Shown one piece after another: positions 12,170 to 63,080 of a stretch of DNA of 64,000 nucleotides (its first letter is position 1; the number at the start of each line of letters is the position of its first letter). The translations under genes and the position numbers were made by a program. Under the pieces are notes generated by a model. That model did not search any database and had not been told where the DNA came from. It saw nothing but the letters and a program-made list of their open reading frames with translations. Source of the DNA: a virus; the IMG/VR virus record IMGVR_UViG_3300020171_000003, positions 16,533 to 80,532 of that record, one strand, 5' to 3'.

Positions 12170-12181
12170 TTCATTTCTCCT

Positions 12182-14197: not shown

Positions 14198-14249
14198 AAG
14201 CACTTGACGCATATCAAGACATGCATGTTTTTCTGACCGTGCTTTTTCA

Positions 14250-24602: not shown

Positions 24603-24611
24603 TTTTTACTT

Positions 24612-24686: not shown

Positions 24687-24707
24687 AGTATCTCACTTTC
24701 TGTTTGA

Positions 24708-35645: not shown

Positions 35646-36119
35646 ATGAATAGACCAAATCCTTCAGTGGCTTTTGTGGAAGATGTTTCTTTATACAATG
35701 AACCTCCCTTGATGGCTGTTGTCTCAGGGGAGCTTCTTGTATCGAGAATGAATCATGTTTTAGGAACCGCACATTTTCCTGGTAGGGTTAGAAATATTTG
35801 GTTGTCTGTTGGTAATTGTGGAACAGACAAAACAGATGCTTTGAATATAAGCGGGGAAGTTTATATTAATGGATCAAGTTGTTTGACAACTACTCCAAAA
35901 ATTGCAGGTGTATCAGGAGAAGCAGGAGCACAAAAAACTACTAAAGTTATCGGTGATACTGCTATTGTCCAAGCGGTTGTGAACGCTTCTGCTAATTCAT
36001 ACAATGCAGGTGATATTTTTACTTGTAATTTCAAAATTCAGAGAACTACTCCGGAAGACGAAATTGAATCAATTGTTCTTGTGGTTGATCTTTTTCCGAA
36101 CACACCGGTATCAGTTTAA
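35646..36119 (+). CDS. Probable minor virion protein (3 SGE motifs)
   Basis: Beta-rich; directly after the capsid gene; strong RBS. Confidence 0.55.
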   Translation: MNRPNPSVAFVEDVSLYNEPPLMAVVSGELLVSRMNHVLGTAHFPGRVRNIWLSVGNCGTDKTDALNISGEVYINGSSCLTTTPKIAGVSGEAGAQKTTKVIGDTAIVQAVVNASANSYNAGDIFTCNFKIQRTTPEDEIESIVLVVDLFPNTPVSV

Positions 36120-36132
36120 AAGGAGGGCAATC

Positions 36133-37058: not shown

Positions 37059-37676
37059 TTGTCCATTGCTTTAGACATAAAAGGTATTTTAAATGAGACC
37101 GGATACTCTTTGTCTATTATTAGAGATAAAGAAATCTCCGGAGAAAAGGGTGAATTTAAATCCAATTCTCAGATTACAAAACCTTTTGTAAGACAGCATT
37201 TTTTAGAAGGTGTTTTACCTTATGATACAAAGATTATTCCTGGTGATGTTGTTAAAACAGTAGTAAATTCTGAATTTTTTCTTGCAATGAATGTTACGGA
37301 TGTAGTTTTAGAAAATACCTGTATAAAGAAAGAAACTGTTTTTTATAGATGCAATGTGAGCGGTGAAGTTTTGCGAGTTAGCGGGGAAGAAAGAAACTTG
37401 CAGACATACGCTTTACAGCCCATATATCAATCAATAAGCAATTTATGTTATGCTGTGATTGCAGATACAGACGCAGGTACAGATATTTTGCAAGAAGAAA
37501 GAATTGGACAGATAGAAACGAATAAATTGTTTTTATTTATTCCGCATTCTGTAGGAATACGTCCTTTAGATATTTATATTCCTTATTCAGGAGAGTATTA
37601 TAAAGTTGAGTCTGTTGAAAAGTTTCGTTTTCCGGCTGTAGATTATTGTATTTTATCTGAAAATACCATAGACTAA
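37059..37676 (+). CDS. Probable head-closure protein (4 SGE motifs)
   Basis: Two repeated beta-barrel-like halves (IIPGDVV, IRPLDIY...YYKVESVE); position. Confidence 0.55.
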   Translation: MSIALDIKGILNETGYSLSIIRDKEISGEKGEFKSNSQITKPFVRQHFLEGVLPYDTKIIPGDVVKTVVNSEFFLAMNVTDVVLENTCIKKETVFYRCNVSGEVLRVSGEERNLQTYALQPIYQSISNLCYAVIADTDAGTDILQEERIGQIETNKLFLFIPHSVGIRPLDIYIPYSGEYYKVESVEKFRFPAVDYCILSENTID

Positions 37677-37695: not shown

Positions 37696-39762
37696 TTGAA
37701 AATGAAAAAAAAGATATTATTTGTAGGTGAAGCACCTTACGCATTTACTGGTAATTCTAATATGATGAATGCTTTACTTTCATCTGTTGATACTGATAAA
37801 TACGAGGTGTGTTGTTTTGGTTCAGGTGAGTCTCAAATAAAAGGAGATTCTATATTTCATTCTATGCCTTTTACTATTATCCCTTCTTTCAAACACGGTG
37901 ATTTTTGGGGTAATGTCCATTTGTTAGAAGTTATTAATTCAAGTTCTTTTGATGTATTATTTATGGTAGGAATAGATTTGTGGAGATATGCTTCTATTTT
38001 TCCTGAAATAGTGAAATTAAGACAAGTTAAAAAATTTAAATGGGTATTTCTTTTTCCTTACGATTTTGAAAATTACAGACGAGAATGGGCAGGTTGGATT
38101 AATGCAATAGATATTCCGTTAGTTTATTCCCAGTATGGAGAAGATCTTTTAAAAGAATATCATCCTAATATTACTTACTTTAGACCACCTTTGTTTGGCT
38201 CAGAGATTTTTACTTCTTTCCCTGTTGAGCAAAAGAAGATGGAAAAAAGTAAAATATTTTCTCAAGTAGCAAACAAGTTTATTTTTGGTTTTATTGGTCA
38301 GAATCAATTACGAAAAGATCCTTTAAGAGTTTTAGAAGCTTTCTCTTTGTTCCATAAAAAGAATCCAAATACTGCTTTATATCTTCATACAGAAAATCAA
38401 GGTCCAAAAGGGGTTTATAATATAAATCAAGCTGTGTTTGATCTTGATTTTCCTCCACATACAATTTTACTTAAAAAAGAAGGTCAAATTTACAGTCAAT
38501 TGGATATGATCCGAATTTATAATGCAATTGATTGTTTAGTGAATGCTTCTTTTCAAGAAGGTTTATCTTGGACAGTTTTAGAAGCAATGTTATCAGGATG
38601 TCCTGTTATTGCTTCGGATACAACCGCTCATCCTGAGTTATTATGGGATGCAGGCATTCTTGTTAAAAGAACGGATCGAGTTCTTTTACCAATAGGAGGT
38701 ATTACTGAAGGTGTTGTTTATGCTTCTACTCATGCGTGTAATACTGAAAAATTAGCGGAAGCAATGGCTACTATGTATTTAAATGATGAATATAGATTAG
38801 AATGTTCTGAACAAGGTTTACTTAGAGGAAAAGAATGGTTAGCAAGTGTTTCTAATGTGAATGATGTTTTAGATGTTGTTTCTATAGAGAAACCGGTTCA
38901 AAGAGTAGAAAGAATAAAAGGTGTTTTATTTGGTCAAAAAGCAAGTGCTGGTGACATTCTAATGACTACACAATGTTTGAAAGGACTGAAAGAACTTCAT
39001 CCGGATTTGCCTTTAAATTACATGACTTCTCAAAAATATATGAATATTTTAGAAGGGAATCCGTATATTGAAAATATTTATTCTTGGGATGATTCTTTGC
39101 CTGCTCGTTTTGATTTTTATTACAATCCACATGAGCAACGTATTTTACCAGGACATTGGGGTAGAAACTCAAATTCCCTATTGTCGGACTTTTATTGGAA
39201 AATTTTAAAAGTAGAACCTGGTTCGTTTTTTATTTATCCTCAAGAAATTCCTTCTGAATTTTCAGTTAAAATTCTTTCAGTAGATAGACCCATTGCTGTT
39301 GTTTATTCCGCAGGAGCAGATAGACCTTTTAGAGAATACCAATATTTTGGAATAGTATGCAATGAGATTAAAGATAGATATGTTACAATTCAATTAGGAG
39401 GACATGATGATTATCCTGCAGGAGCAGAAATTGATCTAAGAGGACAACTAACTTATAGACAAGAAGCTTGGGTAGTCCAGAGAGCTTCACTTGGTTTAAC
39501 TGTGGATACTTTTGGAGCACATTTAGTAGGTGCTTTAGGTGTTTCTCAAGTTACTTTACCAGGTTCAAGTAATAGCAGGGTAGTTCAACCAAAACAAACA
39601 GCAGGTGATCTTATTATATTAGATCCTGATTATGTAAAAGTGTGTCCTGGTTTAGGGCCTTGTTCTGCAAGTGTTAGAGATTGTCCTTTGCCTTGTATTG
39701 GTTCTATTTCTCCTAAAAAAATTATAGAGTCAATTGATTTTATAGAAAGGAAGGGTTTATGA
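37696..39762 (+). CDS. Two-domain glycosyltransferase (GT4-like + GT9 heptosyltransferase-like)
   Basis: GQNQLRKD, EGLSWTVLEAMLSGCPVIASD; then SAGDILMTT, NPYIE, IDLRGQLT, VDTFGAHLVGALG. Confidence 0.88.
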   Translation: MKMKKKILFVGEAPYAFTGNSNMMNALLSSVDTDKYEVCCFGSGESQIKGDSIFHSMPFTIIPSFKHGDFWGNVHLLEVINSSSFDVLFMVGIDLWRYASIFPEIVKLRQVKKFKWVFLFPYDFENYRREWAGWINAIDIPLVYSQYGEDLLKEYHPNITYFRPPLFGSEIFTSFPVEQKKMEKSKIFSQVANKFIFGFIGQNQLRKDPLRVLEAFSLFHKKNPNTALYLHTENQGPKGVYNINQAVFDLDFPPHTILLKKEGQIYSQLDMIRIYNAIDCLVNASFQEGLSWTVLEAMLSGCPVIASDTTAHPELLWDAGILVKRTDRVLLPIGGITEGVVYASTHACNTEKLAEAMATMYLNDEYRLECSEQGLLRGKEWLASVSNVNDVLDVVSIEKPVQRVERIKGVLFGQKASAGDILMTTQCLKGLKELHPDLPLNYMTSQKYMNILEGNPYIENIYSWDDSLPARFDFYYNPHEQRILPGHWGRNSNSLLSDFYWKILKVEPGSFFIYPQEIPSEFSVKILSVDRPIAVVYSAGADRPFREYQYFGIVCNEIKDRYVTIQLGGHDDYPAGAEIDLRGQLTYRQEAWVVQRASLGLTVDTFGAHLVGALGVSQVTLPGSSNSRVVQPKQTAGDLIILDPDYVKVCPGLGPCSASVRDCPLPCIGSISPKKIIESIDFIERKGL

Positions 39763-40454
39763 GACCTTTAGTAATTGCTTCAAATATGTTAATGGAAGCG
39801 AACAATGATTTAGAAGGTTGGATTGAGAATATGCAACAAGTTACTGATTTGGGCATTCTTGTTGTGGACGGCGGTTCTACTGACGGAACAAAAGAGATTT
39901 TAGAGGCTGCTGGAGTTATTGTTATTACAGATAATATAATTCAAAGAGAAGGATACGGACCTGCAAGAAATCAATTAAGAAAACTTTGTAAAGAGAACTT
40001 TCCAGAAGCTCATTGGATGGCTTATTTTGATGCTGATGAAAGAATCAATGAAAAAGACATTCATTTTTTGAAATGGGTTCAAAACTATTTAAATGAAAGC
40101 GTTTCTGATGTTGTTGCTTTTCCAAGAATTGATTGGTTTGATAAAGAGAAAACTAAATCAAATAATGATATACGGATAGTTCCGGATTTTCAAGCAAGAA
40201 TGACAAGATTAAATGCTCCTTTGGAATATATAAGAATTTGTCATGAACAGATTGTAACAACTAAAGGCATTTTTTGTAATATAGATGTTTGTCCGCCTAT
40301 TCATCATTTTCATAGGTCAGCAAGTAAAGATAAGCGTGATTACATTGGTAAGGTCTGTGCTATGCTTCATTCTAAAGATCCATATGGACATACTTATCCG
40401 AAACACCATAAAGAAGATTATTATTTTGATTTGTATCAGAAAGAAGGTTTATGA
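39759..40454 (+). CDS. GT2 (GT-A) glycosyltransferase
   Basis: VVDGGSTDGTKEI, ARN, FDADE, PDFQAR, HEQI. Confidence 0.88.
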   Translation: MRPLVIASNMLMEANNDLEGWIENMQQVTDLGILVVDGGSTDGTKEILEAAGVIVITDNIIQREGYGPARNQLRKLCKENFPEAHWMAYFDADERINEKDIHFLKWVQNYLNESVSDVVAFPRIDWFDKEKTKSNNDIRIVPDFQARMTRLNAPLEYIRICHEQIVTTKGIFCNIDVCPPIHHFHRSASKDKRDYIGKVCAMLHSKDPYGHTYPKHHKEDYYFDLYQKEGL

Positions 40455-41083
40455 AGGAAGAAATTTTTATTTTTGGAAATTCTATGTGCTGTACTCCTTC
40501 TAAGGAATCTTATCTTGATTTACTGAAACAAGATTATGATGTTAACGGTATGTGGATGAGAGGAATGACAATTTGGCATGTTAATAAATATCTAAGAAAT
40601 ATTGTTAGAGGAGATAATTCTTGGATAATTATTAATGTAGGAATAGTTGAGGCTGTTACTAGAAAATCCTATCATGTTTTATACTATTGGTTAAATGAAT
40701 TACTTTCACATGATGCTGATGAACTGTTTAAAGAAACTATTTTACCATACTTGCAAAATATTTCTTTAAGTATGGATAAAGAAGATGTTTCTTTTTGGAA
40801 TATAATTCCATCCGGTTGTTTTTTACGGTTGTTTGAACTTTGTTTAAAAAAATTAGAAAGTTATAGAATCATTGTGGTAGGACCTGCTTATCCAAAACCT
40901 TTAGAAAATACTTCAAGATTTTCTATTTGTATTAATTATGCTTCTATTCTAAAAAATTTAGAAAAAATTTATTTTATTGATACTTGGAACAAGTGTAAAG
41001 AGGATTCTATTGATGATGCTCATTTGAATGCAAATGGACATAAAAAGATTTACAATCTCATAAAGGAGAAAATTAATGGATAA
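40451..41083 (+). CDS. SGNH/GDSL-fold esterase or acyltransferase
   Basis: IFGNS, NVGIVE, DDAHLNANGHKKI. Confidence 0.7.
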   Translation: MKEEIFIFGNSMCCTPSKESYLDLLKQDYDVNGMWMRGMTIWHVNKYLRNIVRGDNSWIIINVGIVEAVTRKSYHVLYYWLNELLSHDADELFKETILPYLQNISLSMDKEDVSFWNIIPSGCFLRLFELCLKKLESYRIIVVGPAYPKPLENTSRFSICINYASILKNLEKIYFIDTWNKCKEDSIDDAHLNANGHKKIYNLIKEKING

Positions 41084-42026
41084 AAGAAATGTGTTTACCT
41101 CTACAGGAATAAAATTATTACAACATCCGGAAGTCATACATTTTTTACAGAGAGGACGATTTATTCCTGTTTCATTACAAGTTGCCCCTACTTCAAGATG
41201 TAATTTGAATTGTTCCTTTTGTTCTAACAGCAAAAGGAGTAAACATGAAGATTTGGATAGAAATGAATTGTTTTATTTTATTGATGTTTTACAAAGAACA
41301 GGACTTAAAACAGTAGAAATCACTGGTGGCGGTGATCCTACAATGTATCATAGCATTAATGAGTTGATAGAGTGTATTTATGAATCTGATCTGGAAGTCG
41401 GATTAATTTCAAATGGTATTTTACTTAAAGAGAAAATTAGTCCTAGAAATTTAAATTCATTAACTTGGTTAAGAGTCTCTTTAAACTCGTTGGAGTATTG
41501 TGACGATATTGATTTACCTAAAATTAATGGTACACTGGGATTCAGTTTTGTAATTCATTCTAAAAATATAAATAACATATTAAAATATGGTAAAAGAATA
41601 AGAAAATTGGTGGATAAGTACCATGCTTCTTATGTCCGCATTGTTCCGGATTGTTTACCTGGAGAAGATGAAAAAAGATTGAATGTAATCTGTGAAGCTT
41701 TTGTTCGTGAATTTGGGGAACCGTTTTTCTTTCAAGAGAAGATTTTTAGGAAACCAGATAACTGTTGGTGGGGATATTTAAAACCGTTTCTTCTTCATGA
41801 TAAGTTTGTTTATCCTTGTAGTTCTGTTGTTCTTAATTCAGGATCTGAAGGAGTATTTCATGAAAAATTTAGAGTAGCTACTATGGATGATTTTCTTTTA
41901 AATTATAGACAAGGTTTTAAAGTAAATTCTTTTCCTACAGCTAATTGTGATAGGTGTGTTTTTGCAAATCAGAATGATATGGTAGATTCAATTTTGAATC
42001 CTAATAAAATGAGGAATTTTTTATAA
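41076..42026 (+). CDS. Radical SAM enzyme with C-terminal Cys-rich (SPASM/twitch-like) domain
   Basis: CNLNCSFC, ITGGGDP, ISNG, VYPC, CDRC. Confidence 0.9.
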   Translation: MDKRNVFTSTGIKLLQHPEVIHFLQRGRFIPVSLQVAPTSRCNLNCSFCSNSKRSKHEDLDRNELFYFIDVLQRTGLKTVEITGGGDPTMYHSINELIECIYESDLEVGLISNGILLKEKISPRNLNSLTWLRVSLNSLEYCDDIDLPKINGTLGFSFVIHSKNINNILKYGKRIRKLVDKYHASYVRIVPDCLPGEDEKRLNVICEAFVREFGEPFFFQEKIFRKPDNCWWGYLKPFLLHDKFVYPCSSVVLNSGSEGVFHEKFRVATMDDFLLNYRQGFKVNSFPTANCDRCVFANQNDMVDSILNPNKMRNFL

Positions 42027-42556
42027 TGAGAAAATTACAAATAGGTCCAGGAAAAGCTTATTTCCCCGGATGGGACAATGTGGATATATTTTCAAATGTT
42101 CGGGCAGATCTTTATGCCTCTGCTCTTGCTTTACCTTACGAACCTGAAACTTTTGATTTGTTATATAGTTCACATGTCCTTGAGCATATAAATAGAAACA
42201 TGACAGTAGCAGCATTGAGTCATTGGCATTCGTTGTTACGCAAAGGAGGGGTGCTTCGTTTAGCGGTTCCCAGTTTCTCTGCTGTTGTTGAGTACTATAA
42301 TAAAGAAAAAGATTTGGTTCCTTTACTTGGTCTTCTATTTGGAGGACAAAGGTTTATTTTAGATTCTCATTGTTGTGTCTTTGATGAAATGTTTTTAACC
42401 AAGTTATTAAAACAAGTAGGATTTACTGAAATAAGAAAATGGGATTGGAGAAAGACGGAACATGCTCAATTTGATGATTATTCCCAAGCGTATCTTCCCC
42501 ATATGGATAAAGAAGAAGGTCTTCTAATGTCTTTGAATATGGAGGCCGTAAAATGA
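42026..42556 (+). CDS. Class I SAM-dependent methyltransferase
   Basis: LQIGPG, SSHVLEH, LRKGGVLRLAVP. Confidence 0.88.
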   Translation: MRKLQIGPGKAYFPGWDNVDIFSNVRADLYASALALPYEPETFDLLYSSHVLEHINRNMTVAALSHWHSLLRKGGVLRLAVPSFSAVVEYYNKEKDLVPLLGLLFGGQRFILDSHCCVFDEMFLTKLLKQVGFTEIRKWDWRKTEHAQFDDYSQAYLPHMDKEEGLLMSLNMEAVK

Positions 42557-43830
42557 AAAATATTTATATTTATGATCCAGAACCTTTTCTTCATGATTAT
42601 GTTTCTCATAAATTTTTAACTCCTTTATTGAAGTATGGTACTACTAAAGGAATGACTATTAAAAAGATAAACTCTTTTGATGAAGCGAAAAACGGAATAG
42701 TTTTATCTTTCAGTGGACATTTAAAATCAGATGTTATTAAGAAATTAAAAGAGGATAATAACTTTATTGGTTCTTTTGATATTACAGATAGCACATGGTT
42801 AAGTGAAGCTTATAGATGGGATCATGAAGCTTGTTCTTCTTTAGATGCTATTTTTAAATTTAGCGGAATTCCAAAGTATCAATATTCACAAGAACTCCAG
42901 ATAGGTGAAGATTTAACTTATTATAAACATGATTATCCTTACATGGAAGATAAAGAATGGCAGTATTTTTGTAACTTGAAAGAAAACAATAAAATTATAC
43001 CTATGCCTCATATTCCGTGGCAGCAATATAATATTGTTCCTATTCACTATTTAAAGAAAAGAGACGTTCTTGTAAGGGGAGGAAATCATTATTTACGTTT
43101 TCATTTGTTTCTTAATTTTTTAAAATTTGGATTAACAAGTAAATGGTCCGGTTTCTTTATGGCTGATTATCATAAATCTAAAATGGATGCAGATCATAGA
43201 TTTTGTGATAATTGTTGTGAAATATGGAACAGAAATAATAATAGATTTCCTTATGAAGAATACTTAAATATTCCTATTTATGAGAAATGTAATAATGGTC
43301 ATATTCCTTGGCCTATTACGGATGAAACCACTTTTCAGAATAAGAACAATCATAGATGGAATAATAAATGTATTCCTATTTATTATTGGTTAACAGAAAC
43401 TTTTGTTAATAAACACGGATATGTGGACATGAAGAAAGTAGAGGATTGTTTCTCTATTTTTTATCTTCATCCGGATGATTTAGGGAATGTTTTAGCTCAC
43501 CATTTATTTACAGCAGATTATAAATGGATTTATAGCATTGATATTCCTCCAAGATTTTGGGAATGTAGTGCGGCGAAAACAGTAAGCTTAATGCCAAGAT
43601 GGACAAGAAATCAAACTCATTTTCCAAATTTGATTGAGAATGAGCATTATATTACTTTTGATGAGGCTTTTGAAGACCTTGAATTAGTAATGGACACAAA
43701 ACAAGAACAATATGACCATATAACAAATAATTGTTATAATTTATATCAAAAATGGATTAAAGGTGAAGAATACGGAATATCAATTAATTTGATGAATCAT
43801 ATATTTAATCAGATTGAAGAAAGGATATAA
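42553..43830 (+). CDS. Probable GT-B glycosyltransferase (Glyco_trans_1_2-like C-terminus)
   Basis: DVLVRGG, PRFWECSAAKT, LIENEHYI, ITNNCYNLY. Confidence 0.6.
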   Translation: MKNIYIYDPEPFLHDYVSHKFLTPLLKYGTTKGMTIKKINSFDEAKNGIVLSFSGHLKSDVIKKLKEDNNFIGSFDITDSTWLSEAYRWDHEACSSLDAIFKFSGIPKYQYSQELQIGEDLTYYKHDYPYMEDKEWQYFCNLKENNKIIPMPHIPWQQYNIVPIHYLKKRDVLVRGGNHYLRFHLFLNFLKFGLTSKWSGFFMADYHKSKMDADHRFCDNCCEIWNRNNNRFPYEEYLNIPIYEKCNNGHIPWPITDETTFQNKNNHRWNNKCIPIYYWLTETFVNKHGYVDMKKVEDCFSIFYLHPDDLGNVLAHHLFTADYKWIYSIDIPPRFWECSAAKTVSLMPRWTRNQTHFPNLIENEHYITFDEAFEDLELVMDTKQEQYDHITNNCYNLYQKWIKGEEYGISINLMNHIFNQIEERI

Positions 43831-44430
43831 ATGCATTACGATATTGATTACTTTGAAAACGGATTAGAAACAGGTAAAAGTTGCTATCAGAATTACCGTT
43901 GGTTACCTGAAGAAACTCTTTCCTTAGCTATGCGTTTCATTGATCATTTTAATTTAACTCCTGAGGATACTATCTTGGATTACGGATGTTCCAAAGGATA
44001 TTTAGTGAAAGCTTTTCGTTTACTTCATAGAAAAGCTTTTGGTTATGATATAAGTCCTTATGCTTTATCTTGTGCTCCTCCGGAAGTAAAAGATTTTTGT
44101 TTTGATTATCTACCAAGAAGACCTTTTAATTTTTGCATTGCTAAAGATGTTTTTGAACATATTTCTTTACCAGATTTGCAAAGACTTTTAACAGGAAATT
44201 TAAATACAAATACTCTCTTTGCAATTATTCCTCTTGGTGATAATAAAATTTATAGATCTTCAATAAATAATCTTGATCCCTCTCACATTGTCTGTTATAG
44301 TGAGGTAGAATGGATGAAATTTTTCGGAAAATGTGGTTGGATTGTGAAAGATTTTACTTTTAGTTTTCCAGGATTAAAAGAACATCATCCTGAAAGATCA
44401 CACGGTTTTTTTACTTTGGTGGAAGTATGA
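43831..44430 (+). CDS. Class I SAM-dependent methyltransferase
   Basis: ILDYGCSKG, GYDISPYA, KDVFEHI. Confidence 0.9.
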   Translation: MHYDIDYFENGLETGKSCYQNYRWLPEETLSLAMRFIDHFNLTPEDTILDYGCSKGYLVKAFRLLHRKAFGYDISPYALSCAPPEVKDFCFDYLPRRPFNFCIAKDVFEHISLPDLQRLLTGNLNTNTLFAIIPLGDNKIYRSSINNLDPSHIVCYSEVEWMKFFGKCGWIVKDFTFSFPGLKEHHPERSHGFFTLVEV

Positions 44431-44825
44431 ATGAATTTAAATTAGATTTATTTGTTCTTAATTCGGAAAGAAATCTTAACCAACCTTTTATTTGGGAAGA
44501 TTTTTCAAAACACCATATATTAGGTGATGTATATTTAGTCAATAATAATTTACAGATAAATAGTACCAAGAAGTATAGTCCTTACTTCTTTTTGATTTAT
44601 GATGATGAGATGATAGAAGAACAAGCGACCGTAGCTCTCCGTTCATTTGCTGATGCGGAGTATGATGTTGTAAAGCTATATAAGAAAGAGAAAGATGATA
44701 AAATAAGTATACAACCGAGATTTTTTAAATCAAGTATAGTTTTACCTGAATTTGGGTTATTACCAAATAATTGGAAAGAATTAAATATGGAGACTTGTTT
44801 AAATGGCTTTCTCTTTACAGTTTGA
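44427..44825 (+). CDS. Small degenerate GT-A-like protein
   Basis: FFLIYDDE and QPRFFK echo the DADE and QAR motifs of the GT2 at 39759. Confidence 0.4.
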   Translation: MNEFKLDLFVLNSERNLNQPFIWEDFSKHHILGDVYLVNNNLQINSTKKYSPYFFLIYDDEMIEEQATVALRSFADAEYDVVKLYKKEKDDKISIQPRFFKSSIVLPEFGLLPNNWKELNMETCLNGFLFTV

Positions 44826-45357
44826 GTTAAATCCGAATGATAAAAGGAAGTTTCTTACCGCTTGTGATAGATTGATGGCTAATATACCACACGCAAGCAG
44901 AAAGATTAATCAGGATTCAGCTTATGCTTTGCAACAAAATTTGATTTCCAATATTTCAAGTCAAAAGTTTTCTTATCCGGCTCATAATGAGCGTTACTCA
45001 GAATGGAAACAACAATACGGTAAAGGTAAAGGTAAATCAGATTTCTGGAATTTATATGGTGATTTATTAAAAGCTATTCAAGTGAAAATAGTACAATGGA
45101 AAGATCAGTCTGAATTTTTTGTAGGGATTCCTCCTAAGATTCAAGATTCTGGAGGGAAATCTTGGTTTGGTGTAGGGGAAAAAGGAGCAACAAAAGAAAT
45201 TTTAAGTTATGCACTTATTATGGAAAAAGGCGGTCAGAATGGGAAACAACCGCCCAGACCTTTATTCGAACCTACAGAAGGAGAATTTGGAGCTTCTGAT
45301 AGAAGATCAAGAATTGCTAACCAAGGACTAATAAGGATTTTACAATCATGGAGATAA
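44803..45357 (+). CDS. Neck/tail-completion protein (HK97 gp10-like)
   Basis: GDLLKAI, YALIMEKG, QPPRPLFEP. Confidence 0.7.
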   Translation: MAFSLQFELNPNDKRKFLTACDRLMANIPHASRKINQDSAYALQQNLISNISSQKFSYPAHNERYSEWKQQYGKGKGKSDFWNLYGDLLKAIQVKIVQWKDQSEFFVGIPPKIQDSGGKSWFGVGEKGATKEILSYALIMEKGGQNGKQPPRPLFEPTEGEFGASDRRSRIANQGLIRILQSWR

Positions 45358-46631: not shown

Positions 46632-47225
46632 ATGGCTATTACTGGACCTGTTACAAAAAATACAACCACTCCTGTTATAGGATTGGCGCAAATTCGTTTA
46701 GGATCGTCTGGAACCAATATTGCAAGTGTTGCTCCTGTTTTGACTGCTAGCAATTCAATTGGTTCTGTGGCAAGTACTAAATTTGTATCTGCTATTGACT
46801 TTTTCAGATTGGAGTCTGGTTATCCTTTAATGGAGGATGCTGCTTATCCGATTCGTGAGAAAGCTTCAATGGAAGTTGCTTTTAAAGAAATTACCCCGGC
46901 TAACATTGCTTATGCTCTTGGTTTAGATGGTGCTTCTGGAGAATATTCTGCGGCTCATTCTGGTGAAATTTCTTTAGGAACTGTCAAAACTCCAGCTTTT
47001 ATTCGTTTGGAGTCTGTTTATACTTATCCTGATGGAAGTAATAAAATGCAGATCATTTTCCCCAGGGCTCAGATTTTGTCTAATGTTGAGTTAGATCATA
47101 ATGCAGAGGAGCCTTTGGCTACTCCTATGATGATTGAAGCAAAACGGGCAGATTCTAATGTTGATGGTGGGAATGCTGTTTGGGATAATAAACCTTATGG
47201 ACGAATTTTTTGGTCCGTTTCATAA
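46632..47225 (+). CDS. Major tail tube protein (2 SGE motifs)
   Basis: Beta-rich 197 aa; FKEITPANIAYALG, IIFPRAQI; strong RBS; precedes chaperones and tape measure. Confidence 0.75.
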   Translation: MAITGPVTKNTTTPVIGLAQIRLGSSGTNIASVAPVLTASNSIGSVASTKFVSAIDFFRLESGYPLMEDAAYPIREKASMEVAFKEITPANIAYALGLDGASGEYSAAHSGEISLGTVKTPAFIRLESVYTYPDGSNKMQIIFPRAQILSNVELDHNAEEPLATPMMIEAKRADSNVDGGNAVWDNKPYGRIFWSVS

Positions 47226-54149: not shown

Positions 54150-55019
54150 ATGAAAGAACTTGATAATAATATTATTACAGAAATTGATGCTTCACAAAAG
54201 ACGCCTATTATTTTAGTAGAGCAATATTTAGATGGAGCTACTTTAAGATGGGCTTTAGCAAAAGAGAATATTATTTTTGGCGGATTCACTTATTTTGCCA
54301 AAACTTTTACAGTAGATGATGTGGATTTTTCTTTTGAAGGTCAATTGGATAAAGTTTCTTTAAATTTTGATAATATAGATTCTGCTTTTGATGCTTATAT
54401 AGAGGCTTTTGATTTTGAAAGCAGACCTATGTTTATAAAAAGAATTTATCTTTCTGGTGAATTAGAAGAAATACCATCTAATCCTGAAATGTATAATGAA
54501 GTATTTTATGGAGAGATGGAACAACCTACAGATTCAGATGGTAGAAATATTAATATTACTGCTGTTTCTGGATATTCTTTGGATAAAGGAATGTTAAATC
54601 AGTATTACGGATCTTTTTGTCAAAGAAAGTTTGGGGATAGACTTTGTACTGTAAATTTAGCGGATGAGAATTACTATTTTAAAAAAGGTATAGTAAGTGG
54701 CGAAGGAACAACTTCTAAATTTAAAACAAATTCTTTGCTTGAAGCAGATAATTTTTGGAAACATGGTAATGTAAAACTTAATATAGATGGGTCTATTTAT
54801 AATAGAAAAGTAAAATCTTTTTCCAGTAATGGAGCATCCGGGGAAGTTACTTTGGATATTGGAATTATTGAAACAATAGACCTTGGTTCTACTTTTGAAA
54901 TAAAGAAAGGTTGTGATTTTACATGGGAAACTTGTTCTGGAAATAATACATGGGGCCCCTCAGGTGAAAATACTTTAAATTTCTTTGGATTTATCCATAT
55001 AGGTATTAATAAGGAATAA
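54150..55019 (+). CDS. Baseplate hub/tail-tip protein (BR0599/gpL-like, 4 SGE motifs)
   Basis: CQRKFGDRLC, KGCDFTWETC, NFFGF. Confidence 0.8.
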   Translation: MKELDNNIITEIDASQKTPIILVEQYLDGATLRWALAKENIIFGGFTYFAKTFTVDDVDFSFEGQLDKVSLNFDNIDSAFDAYIEAFDFESRPMFIKRIYLSGELEEIPSNPEMYNEVFYGEMEQPTDSDGRNINITAVSGYSLDKGMLNQYYGSFCQRKFGDRLCTVNLADENYYFKKGIVSGEGTTSKFKTNSLLEADNFWKHGNVKLNIDGSIYNRKVKSFSSNGASGEVTLDIGIIETIDLGSTFEIKKGCDFTWETCSGNNTWGPSGENTLNFFGFIHIGINKE

Positions 55020-55401: not shown

Positions 55402-58400
55402 ATGAGTTTACTCGGAAAAATAGGAGCACTGGTTGGAGCAGTTGTAGGTGTAGCTTTAGTTGCCACAGGAGTAGGTGCGCCTTTAGGCGGTGCTTTACTT
55501 GGAGCTGCAATAGGAATACCTACCGCATTAGGGGCGGCTCTTACTTATGGAGCAATAGGTTTTGTAGCAGGAACTGTTTTGGATTATGCTTTAGGAGCAG
55601 TAGTTCCAGATATTCCTTCACCTACTTATGATGGAACTTTTCCTGTACCTATATTAGAATCTGGAGCAATTATTTCAGAAGCATACGGAGGTCCTCTTTA
55701 TATAGCTGGAAATATTTTGAGAATGAATGACCCAGATGCAGAAGATAAATTAAAAATAATTGTAGGACATTGTTTAGGACCGGTAGAAGAATTTTTAGGA
55801 ACTTATGTTAATAAAAAAGAATGGAATACTTTAGATAAAGTTCATCATATGGTTCATAGTTATGGAGAAGAATATCAGGTTCCTATTAAAATAACAACTT
55901 CTATAGCGATTGATCAACCTTACTCTAGTAAAACTTTATTTGGCATGTTGACCCTTGTAGTTAATGCATATAAAAGTTTATCTGTTGTTGATAATTTTTT
56001 TACTGATAAAATATGTTCTTTTAGAGGATTAGCCCATAGTGCTTACCTATTTGATAAAAGTTCTTCGGATATAGGAACAAATACTCCGTCTGTGGTAGAA
56101 GTGATAAAAGGAAGAAGATTAATTCCCATTGCTTTGAATGGTGTAGAAGGAGAATTAGAATGGAGTAGAAATATTGGAGATATTCTTTGGGATTATTATA
56201 GAAGGTATGATGTAGCCAGTATAATTGATGAACAACAAATAGGATTTTGGGCTTTTAATGAATCCATAGGAAGTATTGCTGTAGACAGTAGTAAATATGA
56301 TAATAATGGTACTTTACATAATTTTACAGGCACATATTGGGTAGAAGGTCAATTCGGAAACGGTTTACAATTTAACGGTTCAAATTCTTATGTTGATTGT
56401 GGAAATTTAATTCCTTTATCTTTAATAGGTAAGCAGAGTTTTTCTTTATCTTTTATGATTAGTTTTGATTCTGTTACAGGTATTATTTGGCAAAAATATG
56501 AAGATTCTTCCAATTATATTAAAGTTTTTATAAGCGGAGGATATCTAAAAATTGAAGCAAAAAGTTTAGGGTCTTATATTATTAATGAATCTTTTAATTT
56601 TTATCCAATAGCAAATATTGAATATAGAATAGTTCTTTGTTTTGATAAAACAAATCTTGTTTGTTCCTTATATGTGAATAAATTAAAAGATACAATAGAA
56701 GTGGGTTGGAATACTGATACAGATATTTCTAACACTGGTAATGTATTTTGGGGGAGTACTTCTTCCTCTTTTGCTGGTGTTTTAGATCAAGCTCGTATTT
56801 ATAATAAAGTTTTGGATTTTAGAGAAGTTTTTGCTTGTTATGAAGATGGTATTTTAGATGAAAATTCTTTTCGATCTTTAAAAGAGTATTCGGATGAATT
56901 TTTAGAAGATTCAGAAGGTTCTCCGATGAGACCTATTGGCCCAAGTAATTATACAGTAATAGCTTCGAGTCAATTCGGTCAAACTATAAATAGAAATAAT
57001 ATTGCTTCTATTGCTACAAAATTATTTGCAATTATAGGAGAACCAAGGAAAAGTCTTATTGTTACAGGAACTTCTCCTGTAACACATACAAGTGATTATG
57101 GTATATATTCTCCTATTTATGCTTTCGATGTTACAAAAAGTCTTACTTCTGCACCAGAAAATAACTCTTGGAGAAGCGGGAATTTTAGTTATTTTATAGC
57201 TTCAAGAATAAGTTGTGATTTAAGTTTGCCGGTAAAATTAAGAAAAGTAGAGATTATACCAGAAGCAGATATTGGTTTAAAAACTTTTTATGTTCAAGGT
57301 AGCAATAGTGTTTTAGATTTTTTACAATATGAATATAATGATATTGGAACAACTTGGACAGTATTAGGGTCATTACAAACAGCCGTTCCTTATGATTCAA
57401 CTAATCCGGTTCAGAAATTTTATATAAATTCAGATGTTGCTTATAGATACTATTCTTTAAAAATTATGTCTTCTTATGGTATTACTACAGGAATTAGAGA
57501 CATTTGTTTTTGGGGAATACATCCTAGGTTTCCTTTTGATCATGTTTTTGATAATAATATTAGAAAAAATGATGTTAAGAAATTATTAAACTCTTGTTTT
57601 TTTGGAAGAACTTTTAGAACTCAAGGAAAAATAAAAGTAGGATGGGAAGGAAACAAAGAACCAGACGGATTAGGGAGTTTACAAGATAAGAGCGTAAAAC
57701 ATATTTTTACTTTAAATAATGTTATTTCTTTAACTAGGAAAAAACATACTAGGTATAATAAAATAAAAATTAATTATATAAATTTTACAGAAGAAGGTAA
57801 AAAAGATTATATAGAAGATTCTGATGAAATTGATATTGAAAAAAGAGGTGAACAATTATTTGAAGAATCTTGTGATTTTATTTACCATCAGCAAATAGCA
57901 AGAGCCCGAGCAAGAAGGCATTTGAAAAAATCAATGTATTGTGATTGGGATTGTGTAATTGAGTCAACTGATGAAGCTAATAGAGTAGAATTATTTGATG
58001 TTATTTCCGTAATTTGGTCTAAATTTGGTTGGAACGAAAAACAATTTATTGTAATGAAGAAGACAGAAGATTGGTTAGGAAGAGTTACTTTTTATTGTGA
58101 AGCTTATTATTCTGGAATTTATGATGATGAAGAAACACCTGTTCCAGAATCTTATTTTTCTAAACTTTCTAAAGTACTTGGAACTCCGTCTCCAGTAACC
58201 AATTTACAAGCTTTGGATGATTCTTATTTTGATGAACAAGGTAGTTATATTACTCAGGTAGAGATTTCTTATACTCCTCCGAATAATAGAAATTATTTTT
58301 CTCATATAAAATATCAATACGGTTTCAAACTTACAGGAGAAAATTTAATTACTTCAGGAGAATCTCCTGTGGTTTATATGCAACCATCATACTATGCAAA

Positions 58401-59811
58401 TATAAATGTAGGTGATATTCTTTTTGTTTCTGGAGAAGAAGTTACTGTAGGAGAAAAATTAGGAGATTCTTCTTCTGTTCTTGTTGGTAAATCTTTACTT
58501 TTATCTGGAGAAGTTTTTTCTTCTGATTATGTTTCTTTTTTTGACTATCCAGGAAAAGATACAGGTGTAGGTTATTTTACTTTAGACGGAAGAAATATGA
58601 ATTTGGAAATAGGAGATGATCTTTATGTAAAAGCTATTTCGGTAAATACATTTGGAATAGAATCTGGATTATTTTCTCCTTATACTTCTTTATATAAAGG
58701 AGAAGTTACTTTATTAGGATTACAAGAAGCTTTAGCCTCAGGTAAAAAAAGAATACTTTTACCTGACGGTATTTATAGCGGAGAATTTACTTTACCAGAT
58801 CAAGATGTTATAATAGAAGGTGTTTCTAAATCCGGTGTTATTTTTACTAATATGCCTAGCCAAAATTTATTTATTCTCCATAATTTAAATAGTAATTATG
58901 CTTTTAAAAATTTTACTTTACAAAGTAATGTAGATGGTACTTATCCTAAATTATTTAATATTACCGGTGATACTGAGGCTCAAAATTTAGCTAATATATC
59001 TTTTGATAATCTTTCTTTTATTGGAAAAGCTTCCAGAAGAGACAGAGCTATTTATGGATATAAAGGCAAAGGAAATATTGCTATTACAAATTGTCATTCC
59101 ATAAGTGGAGAGATTAATTTTGTTGATTATACTACTTCCAAATTTAATATAAGTAAAAATATAATGGAAAGTAACATATTTTATGCTTTCCAAATTTATT
59201 GTGATACGATTAATATGGAAGAAAATCAATGTTTAAATTATACAGGTGTAGGTATGCTTATTTATCCTACAAATACTGCTAATGTAAATAAAAATTATTT
59301 ATATACAAGAACAGGTTGTGCTTCTATTACAGGTATTAATATTTTTACTACCACAGGTGACATTAAAGCTGTTCAAAATAAAATTGATTTGGATACTTCT
59401 AGTTATTCAAATTCATCTACTAATACAGGTTTAAAAATTAGTAATGATTCTACCGGTATTTCTTTTATTTCAGATAATAATATAAATTTAAAAGCTCATA
59501 GCAATAGTGCTACTAAAGGTCTTTATTTTTATTCTTCTACTGGCATTGGTGGTTCTGTTATAGGAAATACTGTTGTTGTTAACAATATAAATACTCCTTC
59601 AGATAATAATTTGGGTATAGAACTTTTAAGTAATAATGCAACTATTACTGGAAATAGTATTAATTTGGTAAATAATTCAGCTAAAGATATTGGTATTTCT
59701 TTACATGCTGCTTACGGTTATAATAAAGGTACAGATAATATTACTTACAATGTCGGCACTTCAATTTTGGATGCGGGAACAAGTAATGATGTTTTAGCAA
59801 AGGATGTTTAA
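55402..59811 (+). CDS. Central tail tip protein (gpJ-like) with LamG, discoidin-like and beta-helix domains (5 SGE motifs)
   Basis: FRGLA, WSRNIG, WAFNE..G..AVDSS..NNGTL LamG, VELFDVISV, Asn-rich C-terminal beta-helix. Confidence 0.82.
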   Translation: MSLLGKIGALVGAVVGVALVATGVGAPLGGALLGAAIGIPTALGAALTYGAIGFVAGTVLDYALGAVVPDIPSPTYDGTFPVPILESGAIISEAYGGPLYIAGNILRMNDPDAEDKLKIIVGHCLGPVEEFLGTYVNKKEWNTLDKVHHMVHSYGEEYQVPIKITTSIAIDQPYSSKTLFGMLTLVVNAYKSLSVVDNFFTDKICSFRGLAHSAYLFDKSSSDIGTNTPSVVEVIKGRRLIPIALNGVEGELEWSRNIGDILWDYYRRYDVASIIDEQQIGFWAFNESIGSIAVDSSKYDNNGTLHNFTGTYWVEGQFGNGLQFNGSNSYVDCGNLIPLSLIGKQSFSLSFMISFDSVTGIIWQKYEDSSNYIKVFISGGYLKIEAKSLGSYIINESFNFYPIANIEYRIVLCFDKTNLVCSLYVNKLKDTIEVGWNTDTDISNTGNVFWGSTSSSFAGVLDQARIYNKVLDFREVFACYEDGILDENSFRSLKEYSDEFLEDSEGSPMRPIGPSNYTVIASSQFGQTINRNNIASIATKLFAIIGEPRKSLIVTGTSPVTHTSDYGIYSPIYAFDVTKSLTSAPENNSWRSGNFSYFIASRISCDLSLPVKLRKVEIIPEADIGLKTFYVQGSNSVLDFLQYEYNDIGTTWTVLGSLQTAVPYDSTNPVQKFYINSDVAYRYYSLKIMSSYGITTGIRDICFWGIHPRFPFDHVFDNNIRKNDVKKLLNSCFFGRTFRTQGKIKVGWEGNKEPDGLGSLQDKSVKHIFTLNNVISLTRKKHTRYNKIKINYINFTEEGKKDYIEDSDEIDIEKRGEQLFEESCDFIYHQQIARARARRHLKKSMYCDWDCVIESTDEANRVELFDVISVIWSKFGWNEKQFIVMKKTEDWLGRVTFYCEAYYSGIYDDEETPVPESYFSKLSKVLGTPSPVTNLQALDDSYFDEQGSYITQVEISYTPPNNRNYFSHIKYQYGFKLTGENLITSGESPVVYMQPSYYANINVGDILFVSGEEVTVGEKLGDSSSVLVGKSLLLSGEVFSSDYVSFFDYPGKDTGVGYFTLDGRNMNLEIGDDLYVKAISVNTFGIESGLFSPYTSLYKGEVTLLGLQEALASGKKRILLPDGIYSGEFTLPDQDVIIEGVSKSGVIFTNMPSQNLFILHNLNSNYAFKNFTLQSNVDGTYPKLFNITGDTEAQNLANISFDNLSFIGKASRRDRAIYGYKGKGNIAITNCHSISGEINFVDYTTSKFNISKNIMESNIFYAFQIYCDTINMEENQCLNYTGVGMLIYPTNTANVNKNYLYTRTGCASITGINIFTTTGDIKAVQNKIDLDTSSYSNSSTNTGLKISNDSTGISFISDNNINLKAHSNSATKGLYFYSSTGIGGSVIGNTVVVNNINTPSDNNLGIELLSNNATITGNSINLVNNSAKDIGISLHAAYGYNKGTDNITYNVGTSILDAGTSNDVLAKDV

Positions 59812-62743: not shown

Positions 62744-63080
62744 CTTCAACCAGCGGAGAGGACTGATGACCCCGAACCAATTAAAGAAAAAGCTCCGAAA
62801 GGTTTTTGAGCAAATTGTGAAGAAGCAAATTGATGACTTACTAAACCCAAAGAATCACAAATAAAACCGGAGGCCAGCGAATGCCTGAATGTTTACCCAA
62901 CCATTGGTTCAAACTAAGAAGCGGAGTTGAAACAGTATAAAAGAAAAATTAAAATAAAAAAGGTTGACAGAATAAAAAAAAGAGTTTATAAAAAATTAAA
63001 ACAATCAATCTCCTTAAAGAGAACCTTAAAACCATACCCGAGCGAATGCTCATAACTTTTAATTATTGGGAGGTTCTATA

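What the first reader, a model, noticed from the sequence alone, without database searches (positions are those of the whole stretch)
37696..44825. Eight-gene glycan synthesis and tailoring cluster inserted among the neck genes
Seen: GT4+GT9 fusion, GT2, SGNH-fold enzyme, radical SAM, methyltransferase, probable GT-B, second methyltransferase and a GT-A-like fragment, translationally coupled between the head-closure and neck genes, so co-expressed with assembly proteins. Inference: it builds a multi-sugar, methylated and possibly acylated glycan on the virion (shielding or host-surface mimicry). It is separate from the DNA-modification GT on the other arm. A radical SAM step suggests an unusual sugar.
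Basis: partly seen in the sequence, partly recalled or inferred. Interest (0 to 1): 0.8.

Follow-up and report, generated by a model that had tools for sequence, protein, structure and literature searches.

The report
Phage virion glycosylation island with SGE sequon
An uncultured groundwater phage carries seven sugar-building enzymes inside its particle-assembly operon, and comparison with over 100 relatives suggests they attach a variable sugar chain to Ser-Gly-Glu sites on its decoration, neck and tail proteins.

Summary
The gene block is real. Seven of the eight calls hold: GT4+GT9-like fusion, GT2, SGNH-like, radical SAM, two methyltransferases and a GT-B-like protein. The eighth ORF (44427-44825) is a conserved gene of unknown function that also occurs in relatives lacking the island.

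The window lies in a complete 80.5-kb phage genome with terminal repeats and no integrase. More than 100 IMG/VR contigs share the layout: stopper gene, then the fusion, usually GT2, then a 2-9 kb cassette of changing content, then the neck genes.

Here SGE is the most over-represented tripeptide in 80 related loci (475 seen, 92 expected). It sits in a jelly-roll protein after the capsid gene, the stopper and the putative tail tube, but never in the major capsid protein.

One nested sister clade lacks the island and every SGE site. It carries C-terminal poly-Ser/Thr tails on capsid, stopper and tail tube, plus a different glycosyltransferase cluster among its tail genes. A second lineage with a different capsid family, carrying the fusion outside its virion gene block, again shows SGE excess.

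Best reading: cytoplasmic O-glycosylation of virion proteins at SGE. This is inferred from comparison only; no biochemistry exists.

The parts
35646..36119 (+). 157-aa jelly-roll/TNF-like protein encoded right after the major capsid gene. It is a candidate capsid decoration protein and a candidate glycan acceptor, with 3 SGE (S27, S69, S90).
   Evidence: AF2 model pLDDT 91. Weak jelly-roll/TNF-like Foldseek matches. The family carries 2.1 SGE per protein, 44 times expectation. Two alignment columns hold SGE in 44 and 58 of 60 sequences. The family is absent from the island-less clade.
37059..37676 (+). 205-aa stopper/head-closure protein built of two tandem gpFII/gp16-like barrels. Candidate acceptor with 4 SGE (S27, S101, S108, S177).
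   Evidence: AF2 pLDDT 84; VIA Z 10.7-10.2 to lambda, Chi, R4C and T1 stoppers, with both halves matching. 3.6 SGE per protein, 58 times expectation. SGE is present in 89 of 90 fusion-bearing and 0 of 6 island-less homologues.
37702..39762 (+). Bifunctional glycosyltransferase (TTG at 37696 is an alternative start). N-terminal GT4-type GT-B domain, C-terminal GT9/heptosyltransferase-like domain ending in four invariant Cys. It is the conserved anchor of the island and the proposed SGE-recognising or initiating enzyme.
   Evidence: There are 108 relatives in IMG/VR and 81 representatives at E<=1e-30 among 1.84 billion proteins. Only 2 hits in 185,579 species genomes, both on contigs with the same phage gene order, binned into MAGs.
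39759..40454 (+). GT2 (GT-A) glycosyltransferase, near-core. It usually follows the fusion directly and is the likely second or extending sugar transferase.
   Evidence: PF00535 E 2.6e-9. The family is present in 20 of 22 cassettes. DxD (D91, D93) is invariant.
40451..41083 (+). SGNH/GDSL-like hydrolase or acyltransferase. Accessory; possible O-acyl tailoring of the glycan.
   Evidence: No HMM hit. Atlas 0.96, TM 0.72-0.74 to GDSL families. GNS and DDAH motifs in the sequence. tblastn hits in only 4 of the 80 loci.
41076..42026 (+). Radical SAM enzyme with a CX3CX2C cluster and conserved C-terminal Cys. Subfamily unresolved. Accessory.
   Evidence: PF04055 E 1.5e-12. Only the N-terminal core resembles MoaA, viperin, SkfB or YydG. 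Family found in 7 of 22 cassettes.
42026..42556 (+). Class I SAM methyltransferase (176 aa). Accessory.
   Evidence: PF13489 E 2.8e-8, PF08241 E 8.9e-7.
42553..43830 (+). GT-B-like glycosyltransferase candidate (425 aa). Accessory.
   Evidence: No HMM hit. Atlas features 0.95; TM 0.54-0.58 to CgeB/Glyco_trans_1_2 and GT1 clusters. tblastn hits in 3 of the 80 loci, among them L012 and L024.
43831..44430 (+). SAM methyltransferase (199 aa). Accessory.
   Evidence: phrog_27380 E 4.6e-20. PF13489 E 6e-6, just under the cut-off. Family in 7 of 22 cassettes.
44427..44825 (+). Conserved 132-aa protein of unknown function that always precedes the neck gene. It is the downstream border of the island, not part of it.
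   Evidence: Present in 22 of 22 cassette-bearing loci and in island-less L137, L142 and L146. No family or structure match. hhalign to GT2 gives 9.9% probability.
44803..45357 (+). Neck1/tail-completion-like protein. The morphogenesis genes resume here.
   Evidence: phrog_26 E 6e-5. Syntenic in related loci.
46632..47225 (+). Putative major tail tube protein, assigned by its position before the chaperone pair and tape measure. Candidate acceptor with 2 SGE, including the lineage-invariant HSGEI.
   Evidence: Tape measure protein at 48027. SGE is present in 22 of 22 fusion-bearing and 0 of 5 island-less homologues. The island-less homologues read HLGSI, HVGSI or HTGSI at that column and add a poly-Thr C-terminus.
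54150..55019 (+). Distal tail protein with 4 SGE.
   Evidence: phrog_778, tail category, E 6e-18. SGE positions.
55402..59811 (+). 1469-aa distal tail or fibre protein with 5 SGE.
   Evidence: Function is assigned by position only; no PHROG match.
63066..63410 (+). 114-aa protein at the end of the tail module with 2 SGE.

Best explanation
The block 37702-44430 is a seven-gene, soluble, cytoplasmic glycosylation island. It is transcribed with the late morphogenesis genes of a probably virulent 80.5-kb siphovirus-like phage from groundwater.

Proposed mechanism:
1. The conserved GT4+GT9-like fusion recognises the tripeptide Ser-Gly-Glu on newly made virion proteins and puts the first sugar or sugars on the serine. 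The targets are the jelly-roll protein after the capsid gene, the stopper, the tail tube and the distal tail proteins.
2. The near-core GT2 and the GT-B-like ORF6 extend the chain from host nucleotide sugars.
3. The two methyltransferases, the SGNH-like enzyme and the radical SAM enzyme tailor it.

Across the lineage the anchor enzymes and the sequon stay fixed while the tailoring cassette is swapped, much as in O-antigen or capsule loci. Related phages would therefore wear different glycans on the same sites.

Shown here: gene content, synteny, cassette variability, SGE enrichment and its co-distribution with the fusion. Inferred: that SGE serine is the acceptor, which domain initiates, the sugar identities, and the biological role (shielding, stability or adhesion).
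For: Domain assignments.

Synteny: the fusion sits directly after the stopper gene in 76 of 80 loci. The cassette between the fusion and the neck gene is 2.0-9.1 kb with 3-12 genes. A Pfam census of 150 cassette proteins finds radical SAM (20), B12-binding (9), many methyltransferases, GT2, GT4, GT8, pyruvyl transferase, DegT aminotransferase and GDP-mannose dehydratase/RmlD/epimerase. This is carbohydrate chemistry.

SGE counts:
- 475 observed against 92 expected in 308,790 aa, the top tripeptide. SGD is at 0.93x, TGE at 0.76x and SGQ at 0.59x.
- It is concentrated in the stopper (58x), the jelly-roll protein (44x) and the tail tube (20x). The capsid protein has 0 of 67 and the enzymes about none.
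- The sites are conserved in proteins only 38-51% identical.
- All 48 possible codon combinations are used, so selection acts on the protein and not on a DNA motif.
- Window virion module: 21 observed against 2.8 expected, P 3e-12.
- Whole genomes with the fusion: 49/10.0, 20/7.7, 16/8.4 and 24/7.8. The one without it: 10/10.3.

The island-less clade has 0 SGE in stopper and tail tube. It carries poly-S/T C-termini on capsid (6/6 against 0/82), stopper (6/6 against 0/90) and tail tube (5/5 against 0/22). It also has another GT/rSAM/methyltransferase cluster in its tail module.

A second lineage (G006) has a capsid protein of phrog_617/10 and carries the fusion outside its virion gene block. 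It shows 14 SGE against 5.9 expected, six of them in one tail-fibre-like protein.

The enzymes have no transmembrane segment, and no flippase, oligosaccharyltransferase, integrase or resolvase was detected. The best solved relative of the N-terminal domain is the chlorovirus glycosyltransferase B736L, 3oy2, E 2.7e-13.
Against: There is no biochemical or proteomic evidence; the phage is uncultured.

The loss of the island together with SGE is one evolutionary event. The island-less clade is monophyletic with support 0.999, so the Fisher P values overstate independence. The G006 support is modest (P 0.003), and G007 could not be tested because its contig lacks structural genes.

Three or four SGE sites per stopper are positionally conserved, so some may also serve folding or assembly. 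One fusion-bearing phage (L017) has a stopper without SGE. A stopper buried in the neck is an odd target for a surface glycan. The tail tube identity rests on gene order alone.

The GT9-like part resembles LPS heptosyltransferases as much as any protein glycosyltransferase. In some lineages (L024, L025, L040) the island is not in the structural operon.
Confidence: 0.62

Rival explanations
1. The island remodels a host envelope glycan (LPS core, O-antigen or capsule) late in infection, for example to stop progeny adsorbing to debris or to exclude competitors. SGE would then be an unrelated structural motif.
For: The C-terminal domain of ORF1 is most like LPS heptosyltransferases. Soluble GT4, GT2 and GT9 enzymes, methyltransferases and acyl-tailoring enzymes are typical of LPS and capsule loci.
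Against: It does not explain why SGE sites in three virion protein families disappear exactly where the island is missing and are replaced there by poly-S/T tails. The fusion is almost confined to phage contigs: 2 hits in 185,579 species genomes, both on contigs with the same phage gene order. No lipid-carrier GT, flippase, ligase or other transmembrane protein was found. No lysogeny genes were found.
Confidence: 0.13
2. The island does glycosylate virion proteins, but at other sites. SGE would be a fold, assembly or other modification motif that was merely co-inherited with the island.
For: Most SGE sites are positionally conserved. The island/SGE loss is a single event. L017 keeps the fusion but its stopper has no SGE.
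Against: Homologous stoppers and tail tubes do without SGE in the island-less clade, so the fold does not require it. SGE also appears at sporadic new columns, in unrelated distal tail proteins, and in a lineage with a different capsid family. The specificity is strict, with SGD, TGE and SGQ not enriched. That suits enzyme recognition better than structure.
Confidence: 0.12
3. The cluster makes a free glycosylated small molecule or a modified peptide (radical SAM + GT + methyltransferase natural-product logic), or it modifies phage DNA.
For: Radical SAM, methyltransferase and GT combinations occur in RiPP and nucleoside pathways. The radical SAM core resembles SkfB, YydG, CteB and viperin about equally. 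Phages do glycosylate DNA (reference 46 cited in PMC12619734).
Against: The radical SAM and methyltransferase genes are accessory (7 of 22 cassettes), whereas the GTs are the conserved part. No precursor peptide or transporter was noticed. Neither reading accounts for the SGE pattern.
Confidence: 0.05

Closest known systems
Mycobacteriophage virion glycosylation (Che8, Corndog, Myrna). Freeman et al. 2023, Cell Host Microbe 31:1216, read only as cited in PMC12363180 and PMC12619734.
   Same: Phage-encoded cytoplasmic glycosyltransferases decorate the phage's own structural subunits, including the tail tube.
   Different: There the glycans sit at the C-termini of the capsid and tail tube subunits. 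Here the capsid protein has no candidate site, the proposed acceptor is an internal strict tripeptide (SGE), and the targets include a stopper and distal tail proteins. The enzymes differ (GT4+GT9-like fusion), and a hypervariable radical SAM/methyltransferase/GT cassette is attached. The island-less sister clade, with poly-S/T C-terminal tails, looks more like the mycobacteriophage arrangement.
Chlorovirus capsid glycosylation machinery (PBCV-1 Vp54; NY-2A B736L, PDB 3oy2). The PBCV-1 details are from my own knowledge.
   Same: The glycosyltransferases are virus-encoded and soluble, and some are multidomain. The glycans carry methylated sugars and the acceptor sequon is non-canonical. B736L is the best solved relative of the N-terminal domain of ORF1 (E 2.7e-13 over residues 4-397).
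   Different: Those are N-linked glycans on the major capsid protein of a giant algal virus. There is no GT9-like domain and no SGE motif.
Bacterial autotransporter heptosyltransferases (TibC/AAH; PMC4358343)
   Same: A heptosyltransferase-like GT-B enzyme O-glycosylates many serines of a beta-rich protein in the cytoplasm. TibC has a four-Cys metal finger near the C-terminus (Cys339, 342, 358, 370). The phage fusion has four invariant C-terminal Cys (C648, C654, C661, C665).
   Different: TibC did not appear among the PDB sequence matches. The Cys spacing differs. There is no evidence for the N-terminal beta-barrel or the dodecamer. The phage enzyme is fused to a GT4 domain. This is an analogy of mechanism only.
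LPS core heptosyltransferases WaaC/WaaF/WaaQ (GT9)
   Same: They share the domain family of the C-terminal half of ORF1.
   Different: Scores are far below the equivalog cut-offs: 40 bits against 170, and 23 against 467. The enzyme is phage-restricted, fused to GT4, and co-distributed with a protein motif.
Variable glycosylation gene clusters for the fibrils of giant viruses of the mimivirus group (from my own knowledge)
   Same: Clade-specific, interchangeable virus-encoded gene clusters build different glycans on virion surface proteins.
   Different: Eukaryotic giant viruses with other enzyme sets. No defined short sequon is known to me.

Membership tests
GT4-type GT-B glycosyltransferase (Pfam Glycos_transf_1 / Glyco_trans_1_4) | Match to PF00534 or PF13692 above the gathering score | tested here: met
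   ORF1 residues 187-338: 41.8 bits against cut-off 26.4, and 46.2 against 27.
GT9 heptosyltransferase family (PF01075) | Match to PF01075 or to GT9 structures over the C-terminal domain | tested here: inconclusive
   The window protein has no PF01075 hit at E<=0.01. Most full-length homologues carry PF01075. NCBIfam heptosyltransferase III gives E 2e-10. The family profile hits GT9 structures 3tov (E 2.8e-5), 2gt1 and 1psw.
LPS core heptosyltransferase equivalogs (WaaC, WaaF, WaaQ) | Score above the NCBIfam equivalog cut-off | tested here: not met
   TIGR02201: 40.2 bits against 170.2. NF007742: 22.7 against 467. TIGR02193: 16.4 against 185.3.
Bacterial autotransporter heptosyltransferases (TibC/AAH) | Sequence similarity to TibC; four-Cys iron finger; N-terminal beta-barrel; dodecamer | tested here: inconclusive
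   TibC was not among the listed PDB matches. Four invariant C-terminal Cys exist but with different spacing (PMC4358343). Barrel and oligomer state were not tested, as no model of ORF1 was made.
GT2 (GT-A) glycosyltransferase | PF00535 above cut-off, with a DxD motif | tested here: met
   ORF2: 37.6 bits against 23.3. D91 and D93 are invariant in 20 homologues.
Radical SAM superfamily | PF04055 above cut-off and a CX3CX2C motif | tested here: met
   48.4 bits against 29.5. C42, C46 and C49 are invariant. No subfamily cut-off was reached; the best was MoaA at 60 bits against 284.
SGNH/GDSL hydrolase fold (ORF3) | Family HMM match; block I Ser and block V DxxH | tested here: inconclusive
   No Pfam, NCBIfam or PHROG hit. 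Atlas features 0.96 and TM 0.72-0.74 to GDSL clusters. GNS (Ser11) and DDAH are seen in the sequence.
Mycobacteriophage-type virion glycosylation | Glycans attached at the C-termini of capsid and tail tube subunits | tested here: not met
   C-terminal S/T-rich tails are found in 0 of 82 capsid proteins, 0 of 90 stoppers and 0 of 22 tail tubes of fusion-bearing relatives. They are present in all members of the island-less sister clade. Glycan attachment itself cannot be tested with these tools.
Temperate-phage seroconversion glycosyltransferase cassettes (gtrABC-like) | Membrane flippase and membrane GT; lysogenic expression near the integrase | tested here: not met
   No segment with a Kyte-Doolittle 19-residue mean above 1.3 in any island protein. 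No integrase or resolvase in the complete genome. The island lies in the late operon.

The most novel reading that the evidence does not exclude
This would be a previously undescribed protein O-glycosylation system of tailed phages. A phage-specific bifunctional GT4+GT9-like enzyme reads a strict three-residue sequon (Ser-Gly-Glu) on folded virion proteins. A freely exchangeable tailoring cassette then gives each phage its own 'glycotype'. A sister clade has replaced the whole system with C-terminal poly-Ser/Thr tails and a different enzyme set on the same proteins.
Probability: 0.5. Interest if true: 0.88.

Novelty: new variant of a known kind. Interest (0 to 1): 0.8.

Why it matters
Phage virion glycosylation has been shown experimentally only in a few mycobacteriophages, according to the papers I could read.

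This case points to a widespread environmental phage lineage. IMG/VR holds 108 relatives found through the fusion and 424 found through the capsid protein. In this lineage glycosylation appears to be a core, ancient trait with three useful properties:
- a defined short acceptor motif;
- a conserved candidate initiating enzyme;
- a hypervariable glycan cassette.

That makes several questions directly testable with synthetic genes. One is whether phages have sequon-directed O-glycosylation. Another is what drives glycan diversification on virions outside any animal immune system. A third is whether a three-residue tag with a soluble two-domain enzyme could serve as a cytoplasmic glyco-engineering tool.

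The apparent swap between two acceptor styles on the same proteins in sister clades is a natural experiment on how such systems evolve.

Tried and rejected
Genomic context was obtained through the search for related loci, the genome search and the fetch from genomes instead.
- No DNA or capsid-protein match in the INPHARED phage records, so there is no cultured relative. A single-protein pattern scan of IMG/VR found nothing; the alignment-based scan worked.
- No RNA holder was listed among public runs. Only groundwater DNA runs hold the stretch, one of them the probable source.
- The radical SAM subfamily could not be resolved. Only the N-terminal core matches, about equally well to MoaA, viperin, SkfB, YydG and an unnamed protein, 9dfu.
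- ORF8 has no family or solved relative. The link to GT-A is a 9.9% hhalign match.
- phmmer of the GT9-like half alone against PDB gave only 3tov at E 0.06.
- A DNA-motif explanation for SGE was rejected, because all 48 codon combinations occur.
- G007 could not test the SGE link. Its 66-kb contig is about 71% complete and holds replication genes but no recognisable structural module.
- The Freeman 2023 paper is not held. Its content is quoted only through citing papers.
- The flanking preferences around SGE (V/I at -1, Y at +1) are dominated by homologous sites and are not claimed as part of the motif.
- Solvent exposure of the SGE serines could not be measured because model coordinates are not returned. 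DSSP places them at strand starts or ends, within strands and in loops.

Full report
**Context.** The window is bases 16533-80532 of a single 80,532-bp virus record. The record has direct terminal repeats and is rated 100% complete. G+C is about 32%. No tyrosine integrase or serine resolvase was found. The DNA occurs in groundwater metagenomes. There is no cultured relative at the DNA or capsid-protein level.

The + strand from about 28.7 kb carries a classical late operon: head maturation protease (phrog_53), a gpD-like protein, the major capsid protein (phrog_29), then small genes, later a 1178-aa tape measure protein and distal tail proteins.

**The observation.** Eight tightly packed + strand ORFs fill 37696-44825, and their junctions overlap by 1-8 nt or abut. 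The consensus scan shows no excess of promoter-like or terminator-like sites over shuffled sequence.
- ORF1 is a GT4-type domain fused to a heptosyltransferase-like (GT9-like) domain.
- ORF2 is GT2.
- ORF4 is a radical SAM enzyme with CX3CX2C.
- ORF5 and ORF7 are methyltransferases.
- ORF3 and ORF6 have no HMM match. Protein-language-model features and predicted structure place them with SGNH/GDSL hydrolases (0.96; TM 0.72-0.74) and GT-B glycosyltransferases (0.95; TM 0.54-0.58).
- ORF8 could not be tied to any family. It is a conserved gene that also occurs in relatives without the island.

So the island has seven genes. None of its proteins has a transmembrane-like segment. The upstream neighbour g37059 folds as two tandem stopper/head-closure barrels, Z 10.7 to the stoppers of lambda, Chi, R4C and T1. 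The downstream neighbour resembles Neck1/tail completion.

**A lineage hallmark with a variable cassette.**
- ORF1 has more than 200 full-length homologues at 41-70% identity, many on 60-92 kb contigs.
- It has 81 representatives at E<=1e-30 among 1.84 billion proteins, including some unfused halves.
- IMG/VR holds 108 relatives found with the fusion alignment. GTDB species genomes hold only two, both on contigs with the same phage gene order, binned into MAGs.
- In 80 fetched loci the gene order around the island is conserved. The stopper family was found in 76 of 80 loci, directly upstream of the fusion wherever both were mapped.
- Between the fusion and the neck lie 2.0-9.1 kb with 3-12 genes.
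- The GT2 family is present in 20 of 22 cassettes and the ORF8 family in 22 of 22. The window's radical SAM and ORF7 methyltransferase families are each in 7. ORF3 and ORF6 are almost unique.
- The 150 cassette proteins are dominated by radical SAM (20, nine of them with B12-binding domains), methyltransferases, GT2, GT4, GT8, pyruvyl transferases and sugar-nucleotide enzymes such as DegT, GDP-mannose dehydratase, RmlD and epimerases.

This is the architecture of a polysaccharide serotype locus: fixed anchor enzymes with swappable tailoring genes.

**The acceptor lead.** Earlier notes of this scan (e1-6102579, e1-6102588) flagged Ser-Gly-Glu in virion proteins. I tested that lead.
- Own genome: 24 SGE against 7.8 expected. 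In the virion module, 21 against 2.8 (P 3e-12).
- 80 related loci: SGE is the most enriched tripeptide, 475 against 92, while SGD, TGE and SGQ are at or below expectation.
- Distribution: stopper 3.6 per protein (58x), the jelly-roll protein g35646 2.1 per protein (44x), putative tail tube 1.2 per protein (20x). The capsid protein has none in 67 sequences, and the enzymes, portal and protease have essentially none.
- g35646 folds as a jelly-roll/TNF-like sandwich (pLDDT 91) and is encoded right after the capsid gene. It may be a decoration protein; that role is inferred.
- The sites are conserved in proteins that are otherwise 38-51% identical. There are also sporadic extra sites.
- All 48 codon combinations are used, so the constraint is on the protein.

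**Natural controls.** A capsid-based scan found 424 relatives in IMG/VR, of which 80 loci were kept. Six of those loci (five distinct) lack the island: the stopper is followed almost directly by the neck genes.
- Their stoppers and tail tubes have no SGE. At the homologous columns they read TGE, VAD/LIN/IVT, TSS/SN, and HLGSI/HVGSI/HTGSI in place of HSGEI. The g35646 family is missing.
- Counts: stopper 89 of 90 against 0 of 6; tail tube 22 of 22 against 0 of 5.
- These loci form one clade (support 0.999) nested ten nodes deep in the midpoint-rooted capsid tree. This is a single event, and the P values must be read with that in mind.
- In that clade the capsid protein, stopper and tail tube each end in an 8-23-residue run of Ser/Thr. 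This was never seen in fusion-bearing relatives (0 of 82, 0 of 90, 0 of 22).
- Its complete genome G001 has SGE at expectation (10 against 10.3), against 1.9-4.9x in four fusion-bearing genomes. Its fibre proteins contain Ser/Thr runs up to 69 residues.
- G001 also has a different 7-kb cluster in its tail module: radical SAM/SPASM, Glyco_trans_1_2, GT4, GT1, methyltransferase and GT2.

C-terminal glycans on capsid and tail tube are what is reported for mycobacteriophages (cited in PMC12619734 and PMC12363180). The simplest reading is that two alternative virion glycosylation systems, each with its own acceptor signature, occupy the same proteins in sister clades.

**A partly independent replicate.** In G006 the fusion-led cluster lies outside the virion gene block. 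The capsid protein belongs to other PHROGs (617 and 10). SGE is again in excess (14 against 5.9, P 0.003), with six in one tail-fibre-like protein. G007 lacks structural genes on its contig and is uninformative. L017 keeps the fusion but has an SGE-free stopper and four SGE in the post-capsid protein, which shows that targets can shift.

**Mechanism proposed.** The enzymes are soluble and act in the cytoplasm during late expression.
1. The GT4+GT9-like fusion recognises SGE and starts the glycan on serine. Which domain initiates is unknown.
2. GT2 and the GT-B-like ORF6 extend it from host nucleotide sugars. This island carries no sugar-nucleotide genes, though other cassettes do.
3. The methyltransferases, the SGNH-like enzyme and the radical SAM enzyme tailor it.

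The GT9-like domain with four invariant C-terminal Cys recalls TibC/AAH. Those are cytoplasmic serine heptosyltransferases with a four-Cys iron finger (PMC4358343). No direct similarity was found, so this is analogy only. The best solved relative of the N-terminal domain is the chlorovirus NY-2A glycosyltransferase B736L.

**Rivals and weak points.** Host LPS or capsule remodelling, glycosylation at sites other than SGE, and small-molecule or DNA targets cannot be excluded without biochemistry. None of them explains the co-distribution of the fusion, SGE and the poly-S/T swap.

The weak points are these:
- the association rests on one loss event plus one modest replicate;
- some SGE sites may be structurally constrained;
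- the tail tube is assigned by position only;
- a stopper is an unexpected glycan target.

**Verdict.** The finding is a real seven-gene glycan island. The virion-glycosylation reading is well supported by comparative genomics. It can now be stated as a specific, testable model: an SGE sequon, a fusion enzyme as anchor, and a hypervariable cassette. It is a new variant of the known kind 'phage virion glycosylation'.

Noticed in passing
L125, L126, L129, L137, L142, L146; whole genome G001 (loci L153-L157), cluster at G001 38.4-45.8 kb on the minus strand: A sister clade without the neck island has C-terminal poly-Ser/Thr tails on the capsid protein, stopper and tail tube, and Ser/Thr runs up to 69 aa in fibre proteins. 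It also has a different radical SAM/SPASM + GT1/GT4/GT2 + methyltransferase cluster among its distal tail genes. This looks like a second, mycobacteriophage-like virion glycosylation system.
   Followed up: partly
G006 (loci L175-L178): fusion at 10947-13058 (+), structural genes at about 31-62 kb (-): The same fusion-led cluster occurs outside the virion gene block in a phage with a different capsid family (phrog_617/10). A 243-aa tail-fibre-like protein there carries six SGE.
   Followed up: partly
L024 at 8734-14920: This locus has the window's exact cassette order (fusion, GT2, radical SAM, MT176, GT-B-like, MT199; 36-64% identity) but in a non-structural genomic context. This suggests that whole cassettes move between phage lineages.
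   Followed up: no
window 23101-23424, inside the ORF 23017-23655 (+): A roughly 100-residue run of Cys-x-x triplets (CQDCQDCQNCQGCQDC...) makes CQD, QDC and DCQ the most over-represented tripeptides of the genome. Function unknown.
   Followed up: no
window 36004-36603 (+): A 199-aa ORF overlaps the 3' end of g35646 by 116 nt. Relatives have a gap of only about 0.3-0.9 kb, room for one small gene, between g35646 and g36605. A 99-aa ORF in L125 and L126 matches this ORF, so the real gene probably starts at an internal codon.
   Followed up: no
window 53001-54000 and 61001-63000, compared with 24001-26000: There are sharp local G+C shifts: 0.44-0.50 in the 3' parts of two large tail genes, and 0.25-0.27 near the arm junction. 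The genome average is about 0.32. Other notes of this scan read these as swapped receptor-binding modules and a GG/CC-poor region.
   Followed up: no
L173 (MNUG01000004.1) and L174 (CAZLJI010000002.1): The only two GTDB species-genome hits to the fusion are contigs with the same phage gene order, binned into an Alphaproteobacteria MAG and an Ignavibacteriaceae MAG. They may hint at hosts or may be mis-binned.
   Followed up: partly
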